Positions 49,918 to 54,588 of a DNA stretch of 64,000 nt are shown here, one piece after another (position 1 is the stretch's first letter; each line of letters opens with the position of its first letter). A program made the position numbers and the translations under genes. Below the pieces are notes generated by a model, which saw only the letters and a list, made by a program, of their open reading frames with translations, had not been told where the DNA came from and ran no database searches. The stretch is from Escherichia phage S127 BCL3, in the sequence record OQ626344, one strand, 5' to 3'.

Positions 49918-49966
49918 TTTACTTTATTGATGGCCCTGGAGTCAAGGCCATCTAAAAATAAATTTT
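49918..49966 (-). promoter_or_regulatory. 45-bp repeated promoter element, copy 1
   Basis: Minus strand: AT-rich tract, palindrome GATGGCC..GGCCATC enclosing TTGACT, N18, TAAACT. Confidence 0.5.
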
Positions 49967-50165
49967 ACAGGCCTACAATCTCTTTAATTCGTTTTACTGC
50001 TGCCTCAGCGCCTTGAGGGTAAAAATTATGGTAACCAATCACGCGGGTAATACTGATCGCCACTTGATGATCTTCATAATCGCCTTTGAAGATTTCTTGA
50101 CCGTCAATCAACACGGCAATTTTTTCTTCTTTTTTGAAGTTAATAACGCGGATATTGTTGCTCAT
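49965..50165 (-). CDS. hypothetical protein
   Basis: 66 aa; AAGGAGA RBS. Confidence 0.45.
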   Translation of the reverse strand: MSNNIRVINFKKEEKIAVLIDGQEIFKGDYEDHQVAISITRVIGYHNFYPQGAEAAVKRIKEIVGL

Positions 50166-50261
50166 TTTGTTTCTCCTTTTGGAACTTTGTCTATGTGGTG
50201 AGGAGTGTCTCCCCGTTGATTGTTATTATCCATATTCTGGATCTGATTGCAACACCCAGGG

Positions 50262-50303
50262 AGAAAAAAATTAAAAAGTTAGGCCCCCAGGGATCGGGGG
50301 CCG
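50262..50303 (-). terminator. rho-independent terminator (minus strand)
   Basis: GGCCCCCGATCCCTGGGGGCC hairpin followed on minus strand by AACTTTTTAATTTTTTT. Confidence 0.5.
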
Positions 50304-50306
50304 TTA

Positions 50307-50426
50307 TCAGTTACTTACAGCGATAAAATACATCCCTACGCCTAACAATATTTCAAGGGCGATGATCTCAAGCCATACCGTAACACGGCGCACCTTATCG
50401 GTGCGGGGCTTATCCTTGGGTGTCAT
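50307..50426 (-). CDS. 39-aa micro-protein with C-terminal hydrophobic segment
   Basis: MTPKDKPRTDKVRRVTVWLEIIALEILLGVGMYFIAVSN; AGGAGGAAAGGGGGAG RBS. Confidence 0.4.
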   Translation of the reverse strand: MTPKDKPRTDKVRRVTVWLEIIALEILLGVGMYFIAVSN

Positions 50427-50446
50427 CGTCTCCCCCTTTCCTCCTG

Positions 50447-50668
50447 TTAGCAGTTACGTGGTTTGCAATGGTCCCCAGGAGTATTATCACCACGCACATT
50501 ACAAGAAAAATTATCTCTGTCGTTGTTCGATCCATTGTTATAAAATTCCTTAAGATCAGGCCTGAAAATAAAGCTTTCGTTATTGAATCCATCCCGCCAG
50601 GCGGCTGGCTTCAAATCTTCACTAAATGGATTAATTAACGTGGTATTATTTAAACGGCTGGCCCACAT
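50447..50668 (-). CDS. hypothetical protein
   Basis: Start MWASRLNN with GAGAGGAA RBS. Confidence 0.4.
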   Translation of the reverse strand: MWASRLNNTTLINPFSEDLKPAAWRDGFNNESFIFRPDLKEFYNNGSNNDRDNFSCNVRGDNTPGDHCKPRNC

Positions 50669-51017
50669 ATTTTCTATTCCTCTCAAATAAGCGATCCGCC
50701 TCAGTTAAACAAATCTCATGGGCGTGATCTCTGGTTTTAGCTTCATCGAAAACCTGTTGTGCAAGGCTGCAACGTAGGGAGACTGGAAGATCACTATAAT
50801 AGGCGTTGACAAACGTTTGAGCGTCGTACAGGTCTGAAAATACTTTACCCTTTCTATTATTCCCCTTGTCAACAATTGCAAGGATAACCAATACAATAGT
50901 TGCAACCACTCCCAGGAAGATAGATATAATAAACCATAAAAAGGCGGATCTACCCATCTTGCCAGCGATCCAGGCGTTAAACAAGGCAACTAATATAGCC
51001 AAAATAATAAATTCCAT
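50646..51017 (-). CDS. small membrane protein (two TM helices)
   Basis: Start MEFIILAILVALFNAWIAG with AAAGAGGT RBS; second TM FLWFIISIFLGVVATIVLVILAIV. Confidence 0.5.
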   Translation of the reverse strand: MEFIILAILVALFNAWIAGKMGRSAFLWFIISIFLGVVATIVLVILAIVDKGNNRKGKVFSDLYDAQTFVNAYYSDLPVSLRCSLAQQVFDEAKTRDHAHEICLTEADRLFERNRKYVGQPFK

Positions 51018-51084
51018 TCTATGTACCTCTTTTACAGTTCTGATTAACAATAAGGCGGCAAATATGCCGCCGCCTGTTACCTGA

Positions 51085-51465
51085 TTAAAAATTATCGCCG
51101 TAAATCTTTCCGCTTTCTGCCCACACCACCACGCGGGGCATACTATCCCACACATCTTGTTTTAGATTGAGCGCGTGCAATTCTTCGGTGGTGCTCATAC
51201 CAGGCACGGGCTGATTGTATACTGCAAAACGACCACCTGCATAATCATAGGCCAGAGTTAAATCACACTGGATCATCTTTTTGATCATGGCGTTAAGCAT
51301 AGCGTTAGCCGCATATTGGTCACGTTTTAAAGGCAATTCTTTAATAAGTTTGCGATAGTTTTCGATATGGTCGCACACTGTTTCACGTGGAAGATCTTTC
51401 ATATCTTCACGGAATGTAACCAGGTTAAACATAACGGTGTCAATAGCCTTGGTGGTGTTTTTCAT
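51085..51465 (-). CDS. hypothetical protein
   Basis: Start MKNTTKAID with AAAGAGGAAAAC RBS; promoter TTGCAA..TATATT and 5' hairpin upstream. Confidence 0.5.
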   Translation of the reverse strand: MKNTTKAIDTVMFNLVTFREDMKDLPRETVCDHIENYRKLIKELPLKRDQYAANAMLNAMIKKMIQCDLTLAYDYAGGRFAVYNQPVPGMSTTEELHALNLKQDVWDSMPRVVVWAESGKIYGDNF

Positions 51466-51555
51466 GATGTTTTCCTCTTTGTTTTGTGTGGGGCAAGTCA
51501 TCTCGCCCCCTTGATTTTTAATATAGCAGGTTTTTAGATTATTGCAACACTTTTC

Positions 51556-52748: not shown

Positions 52749-53021
52749 GGTGTTTCCCTCTTGTTTGGAATTGCTCACAATGTAAGGCCTGTAAGTAAAC
52801 AACCTATAACAAAACATGGCCCCCTTTAAAATGCACTATGCTATAAAACGTTTGCCATGTCAATGATATTTTTAACGCCATAAAACGGCCCTAAGCGATG
52901 TTTTCAGGTTAAGAAAGGCGATTGCATAGGTAGGGGCCTTTATGGCGCTTGTGGGGCCAACCAGGGGCGATATCGGCGGGATAGAAATAAAAAGCCCCGC
53001 ACAATGGCGGGGCGTTGGTTG

Positions 53022-53219
53022 TTATCTGTCTTTATGGCGGTATCGTTCTGCCTGTCGTTCACGTTCCAAAAGTAGGCCAGGCAATTTACGATCATAATGA
53101 TTTCGCCAGATCTTTCCAAATCTTTTTGGCTTATTCAGTTTATTGTTACGCTGGCGGCGTTCCGGCAACTCTTCGGAATCATGAGGACGCTTTACAATTT
53201 TTTCGAAATTAATTTTCAT
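53022..53219 (-). CDS. hypothetical basic protein
   Basis: Start MKINFEKIVK with AAGGGGGAAG RBS; Arg/Lys-rich. Confidence 0.4.
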   Translation of the reverse strand: MKINFEKIVKRPHDSEELPERRQRNNKLNKPKRFGKIWRNHYDRKLPGLLLERERQAERYRHKDR

Positions 53220-53562
53220 AGCTTCCCCCTTTACTGATTTCAATATTTGCCTGAATCGCCCGGATACGGCGTTTTATAACCTCCTGATCCGTGCAATCAT
53301 ACCCCCAAAAGTCTACAATTTTTGCGCCTCCAGCTTTTAAGCGGTATAGTGTTTCTTGCATCTTGTAAGCTGGGATCGGTCGTGGTGTTACCTGGTCGCC
53401 TTTCTCATCCTTGTACTTGATAATATAATCTTCATTGTCGTTGAATACCCAAAATGGGTATTCTGTAAAGGCGTTGCTCTCTTTTTCGTTTTTGGATTGG
53501 ATCTTGTTTACAATTAAAGCCGTAGCAATAGCGCCAATGATAAAACTTGCACCGCTGATCAT
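53209..53562 (-). CDS. hypothetical protein with N-terminal TM/signal segment
   Basis: Start MISGASFIIGAIATALIV with AAAGGAG RBS. Confidence 0.45.
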   Translation of the reverse strand: MISGASFIIGAIATALIVNKIQSKNEKESNAFTEYPFWVFNDNEDYIIKYKDEKGDQVTPRPIPAYKMQETLYRLKAGGAKIVDFWGYDCTDQEVIKRRIRAIQANIEISKGGSYEN

Positions 53563-53637
53563 GTTACTTTCTCCTTTCATGGTGTTAATAAATTATCTTT
53601 ATAGATGGCCCTGCAGCCAGGACCACCGAAAAAATAA

Positions 53638-53883
53638 CTATTTCACAATGCCTACAAAACAGATCCCGCCTTCCCCGACGTAGGCAATATCGGTCACTTT
53701 GTAGTCGGTCAAGATCTGTTTATTCAGATCATTAATAAAATCGGTCATTGCGTTGGTGTAGTTGTCTTCCATGTCTAGGGAATAATCCCAGGTGTAAACC
53801 TTTTTACGTCCGAAGCCTTTTACCATGATCCGGGCGCTTTTGGTGTTGGTAGGGGCATAGTATTTGGTGATTAGTGCTGCCAT
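53638..53883 (-). CDS. hypothetical protein
   Basis: 81 aa; GAGGAG RBS; downstream of 45-bp repeat promoter. Confidence 0.5.
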   Translation of the reverse strand: MAALITKYYAPTNTKSARIMVKGFGRKKVYTWDYSLDMEDNYTNAMTDFINDLNKQILTDYKVTDIAYVGEGGICFVGIVK

Positions 53884-53923
53884 GGTTTTAACTCCTCATT
53901 AGTTCAGTGTTAACAGTGTAAAG

Positions 53924-53971
53924 TTTACTTTATTGATGGCCCTGGAGTCAAGGCCATCTAAAAATAAATTT
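53924..53971 (-). promoter_or_regulatory. 45-bp repeated promoter element, copy 2
   Basis: Near-identical to copies at 49918 and 54544; minus strand TTGACT-N18-TAAACT inside palindrome GATGGCC..GGCCATC. Confidence 0.5.
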
Positions 53972-54311
53972 ACTCGTTTTCTTCCAGTTCTGCAAGCTCT
54001 TCTTTCACTTCTTCGAGCTCTGTCTGCAATTCCTGGTATTCTTCATCGTCCTCAATATCCAGGCTGTCGATGTAGTCGCTAAATCCGCAACGGTAAGCGA
54101 TAGGATCTAGCTCCTTGAGGATACGCGACGGAAGAAAAGAAATGTTTCCGATCATGATTTCGCCGTAGACCTCGTCTAACCATTCATCATAGTTTTCGTC
54201 GTACTTGTCCTCGTCGATTTCAAAGTTATCGATCTTGTTCTCAAGGTCCGCGATCTGTTTTTTCAGTGCGGCAACCTGAATAGCTTTTTCTGCGGCGGTC
54301 ATAGTGGTCAT
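53970..54311 (-). CDS. hypothetical acidic coiled-coil protein
   Basis: 113 aa; AAGGAGAAAAC RBS; promoter TTGACA..TATACT and GGGAA..TTCCC 5' hairpin upstream. Confidence 0.5.
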   Translation of the reverse strand: MTTMTAAEKAIQVAALKKQIADLENKIDNFEIDEDKYDENYDEWLDEVYGEIMIGNISFLPSRILKELDPIAYRCGFSDYIDSLDIEDDEEYQELQTELEEVKEELAELEENE

Positions 54312-54390
54312 GGTGTTTTCTCCTTTTGTGTGTTCTGGGAAGTTTTCCCGTTTACGTGTTTAAGTATACCGATTTAAGTTAGCTTGTCAA

Positions 54391-54510
54391 TTAAAAATTT
54401 AAGAAAAATTTTGCAAAACTGTTAGCGCTACTCATTAACATTTGCGCCAGGATGTAACCGACAACGCAAACGATAATAGTTACCTTTGTGTATTGGCGTG
54501 TAGTGCTCAT
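54391..54510 (-). CDS. 39-aa hydrophobic micro-protein (tentative)
   Basis: MSTTRQYTKVTIIVCVVGYILAQMLMSSANSFAKFFLNF; overlaps promoter of downstream gene, so uncertain. Confidence 0.25.
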   Translation of the reverse strand: MSTTRQYTKVTIIVCVVGYILAQMLMSSANSFAKFFLNF

Positions 54511-54543
54511 CTTAAAGCCCCTTTTTCGCTTAACTGAGATTAG

Positions 54544-54588
54544 TTTACTTTATTGATGGCCCTGGAGTCAAGGCCATCTAAAAATAAA
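54544..54588 (-). promoter_or_regulatory. 45-bp repeated promoter element, copy 3
   Basis: Same sequence as copies 1 and 2. Confidence 0.45.

What the first reader, a model, noticed from the sequence alone, without database searches (positions are those of the whole stretch)
49918..54588. Three copies of a 45-bp promoter element with embedded palindrome
Seen in sequence: TTTACTTTATTGATGGCCCTGGAGTCAAGGCCATCTAAAAATAAA occurs at 49918, 53924 and 54544. Read on the minus strand it gives an AT-rich tract, TTGACT inside the palindrome GATGGCC/GGCCATC, 18 nt, then TAAACT, each just upstream of a minus-strand gene start. There is no T-run after the hairpin on either strand, so it is not a classical terminator. 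Inference: strong early promoter class whose -35 lies in a palindrome (operator, or RNA 5' structure if transcription starts upstream).
Basis: partly seen in the sequence, partly recalled or inferred. Interest (0 to 1): 0.5.

Follow-up and report, generated by a model that had tools for sequence, protein, structure and literature searches.

The report
Repeated promoter-plus-hairpin cassette in phage early genes
The three identical 45-bp repeats, plus a fourth diverged copy, are intergenic cassettes of an rV5-like E. coli phage that combine a likely host-type promoter with a conserved RNA hairpin, and related phages have gained, lost and swapped small early genes by recombining at them, much like the PeSL elements known from T4-like phages.

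Summary
The 45-mer occurs exactly three times (0 expected by chance). A fourth, diverged copy lies at 53581-53647.

The window is an rV5-like phage (Vequintavirus). About 120 related genomes carry about three copies each, all in the same early-gene region.

Each copy starts at the stop codon of one small early gene and ends 33-40 nt before the next start codon.

It contains a plausible sigma-70 promoter: a T/A tract, TTGACT, an 18-nt spacer, then TAAAyT. The -10 module is identical to that of a canonical neighbouring promoter.

The most strongly conserved feature is a two-tier hairpin that works only on the sense (minus-strand) RNA. It has a 10-bp upper stem, a 2x3 internal loop and a 9-13 bp A/U lower stem. 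Mean energy is -24.6 kcal/mol sense against -15.8 antisense. The fourth copy keeps the hairpin through G.U and compensatory changes but has no -35.

The repeats are also recombination points. Three relatives lack the 620-bp segment between copies 3 and 2 and carry one hybrid element. A phi92-like phage of another subfamily acquired the gene-plus-element cassette.

Best reading: the rV5-group counterpart of T4-type PeSL cassettes. The hairpin is probably an RNA processing or stability signal (RNase III-like anatomy). The operator idea is not supported. No transcription start-site data exist.

The parts
49906..49972 (-). Copy 1 of the cassette, full extent of the hairpin (45-bp core 49918-49962). 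It lies between the stop codon of the 66-aa gene (49965..50165) and the ATG at 49880 of the 101-aa gene.
   Evidence: dG -23.6, z -5.75; 85.4 bits. The 66-mer is identical in 14 of the instances collected.
49916..49945 (-). Promoter-like part of copy 1: -35 TTGACT (49945-49940), 18-nt spacer, -10 TAAATT (49921-49916).
   Evidence: Read from the sequence. Same geometry as copies 2 and 3.
53912..53978 (-). Copy 2 (core 53924-53968). It lies between the stop codon of the 113-aa 'gene B' (53970..54311) and the ATG at 53883 of the 81-aa gene.
   Evidence: dG -24.3, z -6.39; 86.5 bits.
53922..53951 (-). Promoter-like part of copy 2: TTGACT, 18 nt, TAAACT.
   Evidence: 9 of 12 matches.
54532..54598 (-). 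Copy 3 (core 54544-54588). It lies between the stop codon of the 134-aa 'gene A' (54590..54994) and the ATG at 54510 of a 39-aa membrane-type ORF.
   Evidence: dG -25.0, z -6.89; 88.4 bits; the small ORF is phrog_16391.
54542..54571 (-). Promoter-like part of copy 3: TTGACT, 18 nt, TAAACT. The following AATC matches promoter P55070.
53581..53647 (-). Copy 4, diverged. It has the same two-tier hairpin (GGUGGUCCUG / CAGGGCCAUC, lower stem GUUAUUUUU / AAAGAUAAU) and starts at the stop codon TAG of the 81-aa gene. It has no -35 (TGGCTG).
   Evidence: family D1; sense -22.4, antisense -8.1; 76 bits.
53969..54543 (-). Unique part of the dispensable 620-bp cassette between copies 3 and 2: the 39-aa ORF, the sigma-70 promoter at 54390-54363 with its 5' hairpin, and gene B. 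One repeat period (620 bp) is absent from three relatives.
   Evidence: hybrid element with the 5' flank of copy 3 and the 3' flank of copy 2 in ECP32, ime and IMGVR_UViG_2051223002_000007.
53924..54391 (-). Segment transferred to the phi92-like phage KKE7M. It runs from the -35 of the gene-B promoter to the last base of copy 2.
   Evidence: 95.5% identity over 468 bp; crossovers lie in the promoter spacer and in AATAAAGTAAA.

Best explanation
Each copy is a composite intergenic cassette in the early, small-ORF region of an rV5-like phage (Vequintavirus). It has three overlapping roles.

1. Promoter (inferred from sequence). On the DNA it carries a host sigma-70-type promoter for the next gene: a T/A-rich upstream tract, -35 TTGACy, an 18-nt spacer and -10 TAAAyT.

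2. RNA hairpin (selection shown by comparison, function inferred). Transcripts that start at the canonical promoter upstream read through the element. There the whole element folds into a two-tier hairpin that begins at the upstream stop codon: a 10-bp G/C-rich upper stem with a tetraloop, a 2x3 internal loop and a 9-13 bp A/U lower stem. This RNA hairpin is the feature under the strongest selection. It most likely marks the 3' boundary of the upstream cistron as a processing or stability signal. Its anatomy is that of the T7 RNase III sites, which also sit next to promoters. An attenuator role is less likely.

3. Recombination substrate (shown by comparison). The roughly 45-60 bp sequence is repeated in direct orientation, so homologous recombination between copies excises, inserts and exchanges single-gene cassettes.

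This makes it the rV5-group counterpart of the PeSL (promoter-early stem-loop) cassettes of T4-like phages.
For: Identity of the genome:
- The region is 93-96% identical to Vequintavirus genomes.
- 120 records carry the element, about 3 copies each.

Promoter:
- Consensus match.
- The -10 module is identical to that of the canonical promoter P55070 (P194).
- The module is shared with a hairpin-less promoter of phi92-like phage UAB_1, which has the usual layout of promoter, then 5' GC hairpin, then Shine-Dalgarno site.
- PhagePromoter annotated two copies as promoters in phage Gotham.

Hairpin:
- Sense-strand folds are -23.6 to -25.0 kcal/mol, z -5.8 to -6.9. The antisense fold of copy 2 is -16.3; for copy 4 the values are -22.4 sense and -8.1 antisense.
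- All 40 distinct variants from 18 genomes or contigs fold the same way. Mean energy is -24.6 sense against -15.8 antisense, and the sense strand is more stable in 38 of 40.
- 98.3% of cells form a standard pair, and 4 pairs show changes on both sides, for example U-A to C-G and A-U to U-A in the lower stem.
- All three changes in the upper stem of copy 4 keep pairing on the sense strand only, as G.U or C-G.
- In contig IMGVR_3300010279 the orthologue of copy 3 keeps the hairpin although the -35/-10 spacing has grown to 20 nt.
- No terminator lies between the upstream canonical promoters (55070, 54390, 50252) and the elements.
- The T7 R1.1 and R1.3 regions fold to the same anatomy at about -23 kcal/mol, beside promoters phi1.1A, phi1.1B and phi1.3.

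Recombination:
- ECP32, ime and one IMG/VR contig have a single hybrid copy and lack the 620 bp in between.
- KKE7M (Justusliebigvirus, a different subfamily) carries gene B plus the element, with both crossovers inside promoter sequence.
- The same loop variants (ACAC, ACTT) occur at different copies in different genomes.

PeSL definition: read from PMC2839356 and PMC4122927.
Against: - No transcription start, RNA end or reporter data exist for any Vequintavirus in the searchable literature. Promoter activity and RNA processing are therefore both unshown.
- By consensus the promoter is mediocre: 9 of 12 matches and an 18-nt spacer.
- Copy 4 has no -35, and the orthologue of copy 3 in IMGVR_3300010279 has a 20-nt spacing. 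The promoter is therefore not a universal property of the family.
- The covariation rests on few independent events, mainly the split between copies 1-3 and copy 4 plus two haplotypes of copy 4. The alignment was also fitted to the model.
- PeSL stem-loops were reported to act as terminators. This hairpin has no U-run and is not expected to terminate.
- The family has only 4 copies per genome, against about 50 PeSLs in RB49 and phi1.
- The resemblance to RNase III sites is one of shape only.
Confidence: 0.6

Rival explanations
1. It is purely an RNA element: an RNase III-type processing site or a 3' stabilising hairpin in polycistronic early mRNA. The promoter-like hexamers are incidental to an A/T-rich lower stem and a loop that happens to read TTGAC.
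For: - Copy 4 keeps the hairpin but has no -35.
- The orthologue of copy 3 in IMGVR_3300010279 has a 20-nt spacing but an intact, even improved, hairpin.
- Pairing is strand-specific.
- The loops of copy 4 vary in the same positional pattern as those of copies 1-3, so conservation of 'AC' in the loop need not reflect a -35.
- The anatomy matches the T7 R1.1 and R1.3 regions.
Against: - The -10 module with its downstream bases (AAGTAAACTAATC) is identical to that of a canonical TTGACA promoter.
- It is also shared with a hairpin-less promoter in phi92-like phages.
- The T at the sixth position of the -10 is kept in all copies of types 1-3, even where it lies outside the stem.
- In KKE7M the element replaced the native promoter of the downstream gene.
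Confidence: 0.22
2. One reading: an early promoter whose -35 lies in a DNA palindrome that serves as the operator of a dimeric DNA-binding regulator.
For: - The 7-bp inverted repeat GATGGCC/GGCCATC is perfect in the three main copies.
- Exact conservation of 45 bp across copies and genomes suggests sequence-specific recognition.
Against: - In copy 4 the two half-sites differ by transitions that keep pairing only as G.U on the sense strand. As a double-stranded dyad that copy would be degraded.
- The symmetry extends into the A/T flanks with compensatory changes, which no operator model predicts.
- The half-site centres are 17 bp apart, about 1.6 helical turns, which is unusual for a helix-turn-helix dimer (own knowledge).
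- No regulator gene is evident among the neighbouring ORFs.
Confidence: 0.07
3. It is a transcription terminator or attenuator for the upstream gene, the role that was assigned to PeSL stem-loops.
For: - It lies directly after a stop codon and forms a stable hairpin.
- The stem-loop of PeSL 211/210 reduced lacZ expression about as much as the rrnB T1 terminator (PMC2839356).
Against: - The hairpin is followed by AAUAAAGUAAA, not a U-run, on the sense strand, and the terminator scan does not report it.
- The same region has canonical terminators with U-runs at 53013, 50302, 49172 and 51075.
- Genes downstream of copy 4 have no promoter of their own and must depend on read-through.
Confidence: 0.08
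4. It is an autonomous or enzyme-mobilised small mobile element, for example MITE-like, a homing-endonuclease target or a site-specific recombination site.
For: - It is a repeated element with inverted repeats.
- A cassette with ends at the element is present or absent among relatives.
- It was transferred across phage subfamilies.
Against: - There are only 4 copies per genome, always in the same orientation and the same intergenic register: stop codon, element, ribosome-binding site.
- There are no target-site duplications.
- Both crossovers in KKE7M lie in ordinary shared promoter sequence, as expected for homologous recombination.
- No recombinase or endonuclease gene is adjacent.
- The element is absent outside Vequintavirus, apart from that one transfer.
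Confidence: 0.03

Closest known systems
PeSL (promoter-early stem-loop) cassettes of T4-like phages RB49/phi1, PST/T4 and nt-1/KVP40 (Arbiol et al. 2010, PMC2839356; Comeau et al. 2014, PMC4122927)
   Same: - The order of parts is the same: stop codon of the upstream gene in an A/T-rich tract, a sigma-70-like -35 and -10, a stable stem-loop that can overlap the -35, then the Shine-Dalgarno site and start codon of a small ORF of unknown function.
- Both sit in a plastic early region.
- In both, the repeats are end points of insertions, deletions and gene replacements between close relatives.
- Excision of the DNA between two tandem copies is documented here as three genomes with one hybrid copy.
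   Different: - The host phage is a Vequintavirus, not a T4-like phage.
- There are only 4 copies per genome, against about 50.
- The copies are nearly identical over 45-60 bp rather than sharing only a motif.
- The hairpin is two-tiered and encloses the whole promoter, from the upstream tract to the -10.
- The hairpin has no U-run, so a terminator role is unlikely.
- Selection on sense-strand RNA pairing is shown here.
- Mini-circles and promoter or terminator activity were measured for PeSLs but not for this element.
RNase III processing sites of phage T7 early and class II mRNAs (R1.1, R1.3 and others; Dunn and Studier 1983, own knowledge)
   Same: - Both are repeated intergenic hairpins of about 20 bp with an upper stem of about 10 bp, a tetraloop or triloop, an internal loop and a lower stem.
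- Energies are similar, about -23 kcal/mol.
- Both include G.U pairs.
- Both are placed within a few tens of nucleotides of promoters (phi1.1A/B and phi1.3).
- Both lie in polycistronic mRNA of an E. coli phage.
   Different: - There is no sequence similarity.
- Cleavage by RNase III has not been tested for this element.
- In T7 the promoters are for the phage's own polymerase and flank the hairpin rather than lying inside it.
Canonical sigma-70 early promoters of rV5-like and phi92-like phages (rV5 Table S4, PMC3606486; Certrevirus promoter motif, PMC7344957)
   Same: The -35 TTGACn, an A/T-rich upstream tract and the -10 module AAGTAAACT, which are shared with P194/P55070 and with a UAB_1 promoter.
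   Different: - The spacer is 18 nt rather than 16-17 nt.
- The -10 is weaker.
- The element is embedded in a hairpin.
- It is not listed among the 33 promoters reported for rV5.
- The canonical promoters are followed by a 5' GC hairpin, not enclosed by a hairpin.

Membership tests
PeSL-type composite promoter/stem-loop cassette | Sigma-70-like -35 and -10 with an A/T-rich tract upstream | tested here: met
   TTGACT, 18 nt, TAAAyT, 9 of 12 matches. TTTATTTTT lies upstream. This holds for copies 1-3 only; copy 4 has no -35. Promoter activity itself was not testable.
PeSL-type composite promoter/stem-loop cassette | Stable stem-loop within or overlapping the promoter | tested here: met
   The 10-bp upper stem overlaps the -35. 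The full hairpin is -23.6 to -25.0 kcal/mol, z -5.8 to -6.9. It is kept in all 40 variants.
PeSL-type composite promoter/stem-loop cassette | Intergenic register: upstream stop codon at the 5' edge, Shine-Dalgarno site and start codon of a small ORF of unknown function at the 3' edge, within a plastic early region | tested here: met
   Stop codons lie 1-3 nt before the T-tract and the ATG 33-40 nt after the element. All flanking proteins fall in PHROG families of unknown function.
PeSL-type composite promoter/stem-loop cassette | End points of insertions, deletions and replacements between close relatives lie in the element | tested here: met
   The 620-bp cassette is absent and a hybrid element is present in ECP32, ime and an IMG/VR contig. 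The cassette in KKE7M ends at the last base of the element.
PeSL-type composite promoter/stem-loop cassette | The stem-loop acts as a terminator or attenuator | not testable with these tools
   There is no U-run after the stem and the terminator scan does not report it. A reporter assay is needed.
PeSL-type composite promoter/stem-loop cassette | Formation of mini-circles by recombination between tandem copies | not testable with these tools
   Only the expected product, a genome with one hybrid copy, is seen.
PeSL-type composite promoter/stem-loop cassette | Occurs in T4-like myoviruses, the group in which PeSLs were described | tested here: not met
   The genome is a Vequintavirus. The element is therefore PeSL-like in a different phage lineage and is not homologous to described PeSLs.
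RNase III processing site (T7 type) | Hairpin of about 20 bp or more of mostly double-stranded RNA, often with an internal loop, inside a longer transcript | tested here: met
   10 bp plus a 2x3 internal loop plus 9-13 bp. The shape matches the T7 R1.1 and R1.3 regions. No terminator separates the element from the upstream promoter.
RNase III processing site (T7 type) | Cleavage by RNase III in vivo or in vitro | not testable with these tools
   No RNA-end data were found for Vequintavirus.
Intrinsic (rho-independent) terminator | G/C-rich hairpin followed directly by a U-run | tested here: not met
   The stem is followed by AAUAAAGUAAA on the sense strand and UAAAAAUAAA on the antisense strand. 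It is not in the terminator list, which does list canonical terminators nearby.
Operator (dyad-symmetric binding site on double-stranded DNA) | Symmetry kept at the level of double-stranded DNA, independent of strand | tested here: not met
   All copies contain G.T pairs, which are C.A mismatches on the other strand. Copy 4 has at least four such pairs. The antisense fold is 9 kcal/mol weaker on average.
Any curated RNA family (Rfam 15) | Match to a covariance model at its gathering score | tested here: not met
   Only two sub-threshold chance matches were found in 49000-55500. One (SurC, 28.4 bits against a gathering score of 80, + strand) overlaps copy 1 on the antisense strand; the other lies elsewhere.

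The most novel reading that the evidence does not exclude
The hairpin may be a true RNA processing site, cut by host RNase III or by a phage factor, that is deliberately superimposed on a promoter. Read-through transcripts would then be cut to nearly the same 5' end as transcripts started at the element. Every early gene would become an autonomous, portable unit of promoter, gene and 3' hairpin. The same sequence would also act as the 'joint' through which unrelated E. 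coli phage subfamilies (rV5-like and phi92-like) trade single early genes. That would be a cassette-exchange system without an integrase, spanning phage families.
Probability: 0.2. Interest if true: 0.6.

Novelty: new member of a known kind. Interest (0 to 1): 0.4.

Why it matters
Early regions of large lytic phages are packed with small genes of unknown function, many of them host-takeover or anti-defence candidates. How these genes are shuffled between phages is poorly documented outside the T4 group.

This element gives a concrete, sequence-defined joint in rV5-like phages, which are used in phage therapy and biocontrol.
- It predicts where cassettes are gained or lost.
- It shows one cassette crossing into a phi92-like phage.
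- It offers a testable case of a promoter nested inside a selected RNA hairpin.

For annotation, it adds three likely promoters and four RNA hairpins that the published rV5 promoter and terminator lists miss.

Tried and rejected
- Rfam scan of 49000-55500: no family.
- Covariance model R1 on more distant relatives: nothing in Salmonella phage SSBI34 or Klebsiella phage phi1_175008. The family seems confined to Vequintavirus.
- Pattern scans of IMG/VR and of metagenomes: mostly chance single matches. The only true members were further Vequintavirus contigs.
- The search for related loci with gene A gave only two loci.
- Literature searches for transcription start mapping or transcriptomes of Vequintavirus or rV5-like phages found nothing usable. 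One of these searches was poorly targeted.
- The rV5 paper's promoter and terminator tables do not contain the element. The terminator annotations of phage HdK5 do not coincide with it.
- Pfam and PHROGs searches of the seven flanking proteins gave only families of unknown function.
- Integron attC-like site: considered and rejected. There is no RYYYAAC/GTTRRRY core and no integrase.
- N4-type hairpin promoter: considered and rejected, because the phage has no virion RNA polymerase and is rV5-like.
- I first read the conserved 'AC' of the loop as evidence for a -35 constraint. I dropped this because the loop of copy 4, which has no -35, varies in the same positional pattern.
- The other indels in the region (52598-52861; 49223-49581 in Gotham) do not end at this element. 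It is therefore not the only recombination joint.

Full report
**1. The observation**

The 45-mer is present exactly three times, at 49918, 53924 and 54544, with 0 matches expected in shuffled sequence.

Read on the minus strand, which is the coding strand of this part of the window, each copy begins 1-3 nt after the stop codon of one small gene. Each copy ends 33-40 nt before the ATG of the next.

Repeat finding and a covariance model revealed a fourth, diverged copy at 53581-53647. With filters off, the model found no further copy in the 64-kb window. It also found none in the 88-138 kb part of the closest complete genome.

**2. What the genome is**

The region is 93-96% identical to rV5-like phages of E. 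coli, genus Vequintavirus. A 71-nt query around copy 2 hit 120 phage records, nearly all with three places each and all Vequintavirus except one.

The element is absent from the promoter and terminator tables of the rV5 genome paper (PMC3606486). In the record of phage Gotham, PhagePromoter labelled two of the three copies as promoters. I found no transcription start-site or transcriptome study of this genus.

**3. Anatomy**

The sense RNA of every copy folds into one extended hairpin:
- a 10-bp upper stem, GAUGGCCUUG/CAGGGCCAUC, with tetraloop ACUC;
- an internal loop of 2 x 3 nt;
- an A/U lower stem of 9-13 bp, formed by the T-rich 5' flank, which includes or abuts the stop codon, and the A-rich 3' flank, which includes the -10 hexamer.

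Energies are -23.6 to -25.0 kcal/mol, z -5.8 to -6.9. The opposite strand of copy 2 folds at only -16.3 kcal/mol. For copy 4 the values are -22.4 sense against -8.1 antisense. The reason is that several pairs are G.U on the sense strand and therefore C.A mismatches on the other strand.

**4. Comparative test of the hairpin**

I collected the region from 18 genomes or contigs. This gave 40 distinct 66-mers.
- All fold into the same two-tier hairpin. Mean energy is -24.6 sense against -15.8 antisense, and the sense strand is more stable in 38 of 40.
- On the model alignment, 98.3% of cells form a standard pair, and four pairs show changes on both sides. Examples are U-A to C-G and A-U to U-A in the lower stem, and G-C to A-U at its base.
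- Copy 4 differs from copies 1-3 at three upper-stem positions. All three changes keep sense-strand pairing (A-U to G.U, C-G to U.G, U.G to C-G).
- At the same time the -35 position of copy 4 reads TGGCTG.
- In contig IMGVR_3300010279 the orthologue of copy 3 has one extra base in the loop and one in the internal loop. This stretches the -35/-10 spacing to 20 nt but leaves the hairpin intact.

The caveats are that the independent events are few and the alignment was fitted to the model. Even so, the strand asymmetry argues for selection on an RNA, or at least single-stranded sense, structure. It argues against a double-stranded operator.

**5. The promoter reading**

Copies 1-3 match the sigma-70 consensus at 9 of 12 positions with an 18-nt spacer. 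At least 20 better matches lie in the same 20 kb, so 'strong' is not justified by sequence.

Three observations nevertheless support a real promoter:
- The -10 with its downstream bases, AAGTAAACTAATC, is identical to that of the canonical promoter at 55070, TTGACA-16-TAAACT (P194 of the rV5 paper).
- A phi92-like phage, UAB_1, has a hairpin-less promoter, TTGCAA-16-TAAACT, with the same AATAAAGTAAACT module. It is followed by the usual 5' GC hairpin and ribosome-binding site.
- The final T of the hexamer is kept in all copies of types 1-3, even where it lies outside the stem.

I rate promoter activity of copies 1-3 as likely but unshown. Copy 4 is probably not a promoter.

**6. Recombination**

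Three relatives carry a single element whose 5' flank is that of copy 3 and whose 3' flank is that of copy 2: ECP32, ime and IMGVR_UViG_2051223002_000007. The 620 bp in between is missing in all three. That segment holds a 39-aa ORF, a canonical promoter and the 113-aa gene B.

Phage KKE7M belongs to a different subfamily (Justusliebigvirus, phi92-like). It carries a 468-bp segment 95.5% identical to window 53924-54391, which runs exactly from the -35 of the gene-B promoter to the last base of copy 2. Comparison with UAB_1, which has another gene at that place, puts the crossovers at two sites:
- the shared promoter spacer, TTGACAAGATAACTAAAATC;
- the shared -10 module, AATAAAGTAAA.

Loop variants such as ACAC and ACTT appear at different copies in different genomes, and often at two copies of one genome. 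This points to exchange between copies.

Other indels in the region end elsewhere. One of them lies at TTGACA hexamers.

**7. Mechanism proposed**

- Shown by sequence and comparison: the two-tier sense-strand hairpin is conserved, and the repeats are recombination joints.
- Inferred, promoter: copies 1-3 also fire as sigma-70 promoters for the downstream gene.
- Inferred, hairpin: transcripts from the upstream canonical promoters (55070, 54390, 50252) cross the element, because no terminator intervenes. The hairpin then serves as a processing or stability signal at the cistron boundary.
- Basis for the hairpin inference: its size, internal loop, G.U content and position next to a promoter match the T7 R1.1 and R1.3 regions folded here. 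That those T7 regions are RNase III sites is from my own knowledge (Dunn and Studier 1983).
- Termination is unlikely because there is no U-run, and true terminators nearby have one.

**8. Comparison with known systems**

The closest described system is the PeSL (promoter-early stem-loop) of T4-like phages. It has the same order of parts, the same genomic setting and the same role in modular shuffling (PMC2839356 and PMC4122927).

The differences are these:
- the phage lineage is different;
- there are few, nearly identical copies;
- the hairpin encloses the whole promoter;
- the hairpin has no terminator-like tail;
- there is evidence that the pairing is selected on the sense RNA.

I therefore class it as a new member of a known kind.

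**9. Verdict**

- The element is ordinary in kind but well defined.
- It gives a clear example of single-gene cassette exchange within and between E. coli phage subfamilies.
- Interest is moderate (0.4).

Noticed in passing
window 52208-52264, 54337-54390, 47378-47402, 55014-55070 (minus strand): A second repeat class. Canonical sigma-70 promoters (TTGACA-16/17-TATAmT) are each followed about 10 nt later by a G/C hairpin (GGCGGGAAAACTTCCCGCC or similar), then the ribosome-binding site. This looks like a 5'-UTR hairpin on the early mRNAs. The same layout occurs in phi92-like phages KKE7M and UAB_1.
   Followed up: partly
window 4793-4878: Four tandem 21-22 bp repeats, each containing the palindrome GTCCGTnnnACGGAC. 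They lie in an A/T-rich non-coding stretch near the point where GC skew and gene orientation switch. They could be iterons or operators.
   Followed up: no
window 56465-56645: Imperfect direct repeats of 65-74 bp (AAAATC..GAAAACGAAAAA..GATCGAG) in a stretch with few ORFs. This may be the 'non-coding' box drawn in the rV5 genome map.
   Followed up: no
window 1600-2411 (minus strand): A cluster of seven tRNA genes (Pro, Met, Thr, Ser, Tyr, Arg). One 99-nt call, at 1844-1942, has a 4-base anticodon and may be an intron-containing or degenerate tRNA.
   Followed up: no
window 52598-52861: A segment of about 265 bp carrying its own promoter and a small ORF is present in the window but absent from HdK5, WalterGehring, APECc02 and Gotham. 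Its ends lie at or near two TTGACA hexamers (52863-52858 and 52597-52592). This suggests a second cassette indel at promoter sequence.
   Followed up: partly
L009 (KKE7M) 10121-10400, 4278-4471, 2761-3094 versus window 47750-48028, 48168-48361, 51099-51432: Three further single-gene-sized segments are shared at 74-92% identity between the phi92-like phage KKE7M and this rV5-like window. Exchange of early genes between the two subfamilies is therefore not limited to gene B.
   Followed up: no
L002 (Gotham) 4882-4943; window 49223-49581: In Gotham, copy 3 has a 5-nt deletion (GGGCC) that breaks both the hairpin and the promoter spacing. It is the one copy that PhagePromoter did not annotate. Gotham also lacks the 116-aa gene at window 49207-49557.
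   Followed up: partly
phage records MG0656xx: Seventeen records named 'Campylobacter phage' (host C. jejuni; the one record opened, A147, is marked UNVERIFIED) are 93-100% identical to E. coli rV5-like phages in this region. The host assignment looks doubtful.
   Followed up: no
window 53970-54311 (gene B): The mobile 113-aa protein is very acidic and has a coiled-coil-like sequence. It has 35-54% identical relatives in Vibrio, Klebsiella, Proteus, Providencia and Pseudomonas phages of quite different types. It is a widely travelled early gene of unknown function, phrog_9294.
   Followed up: partly
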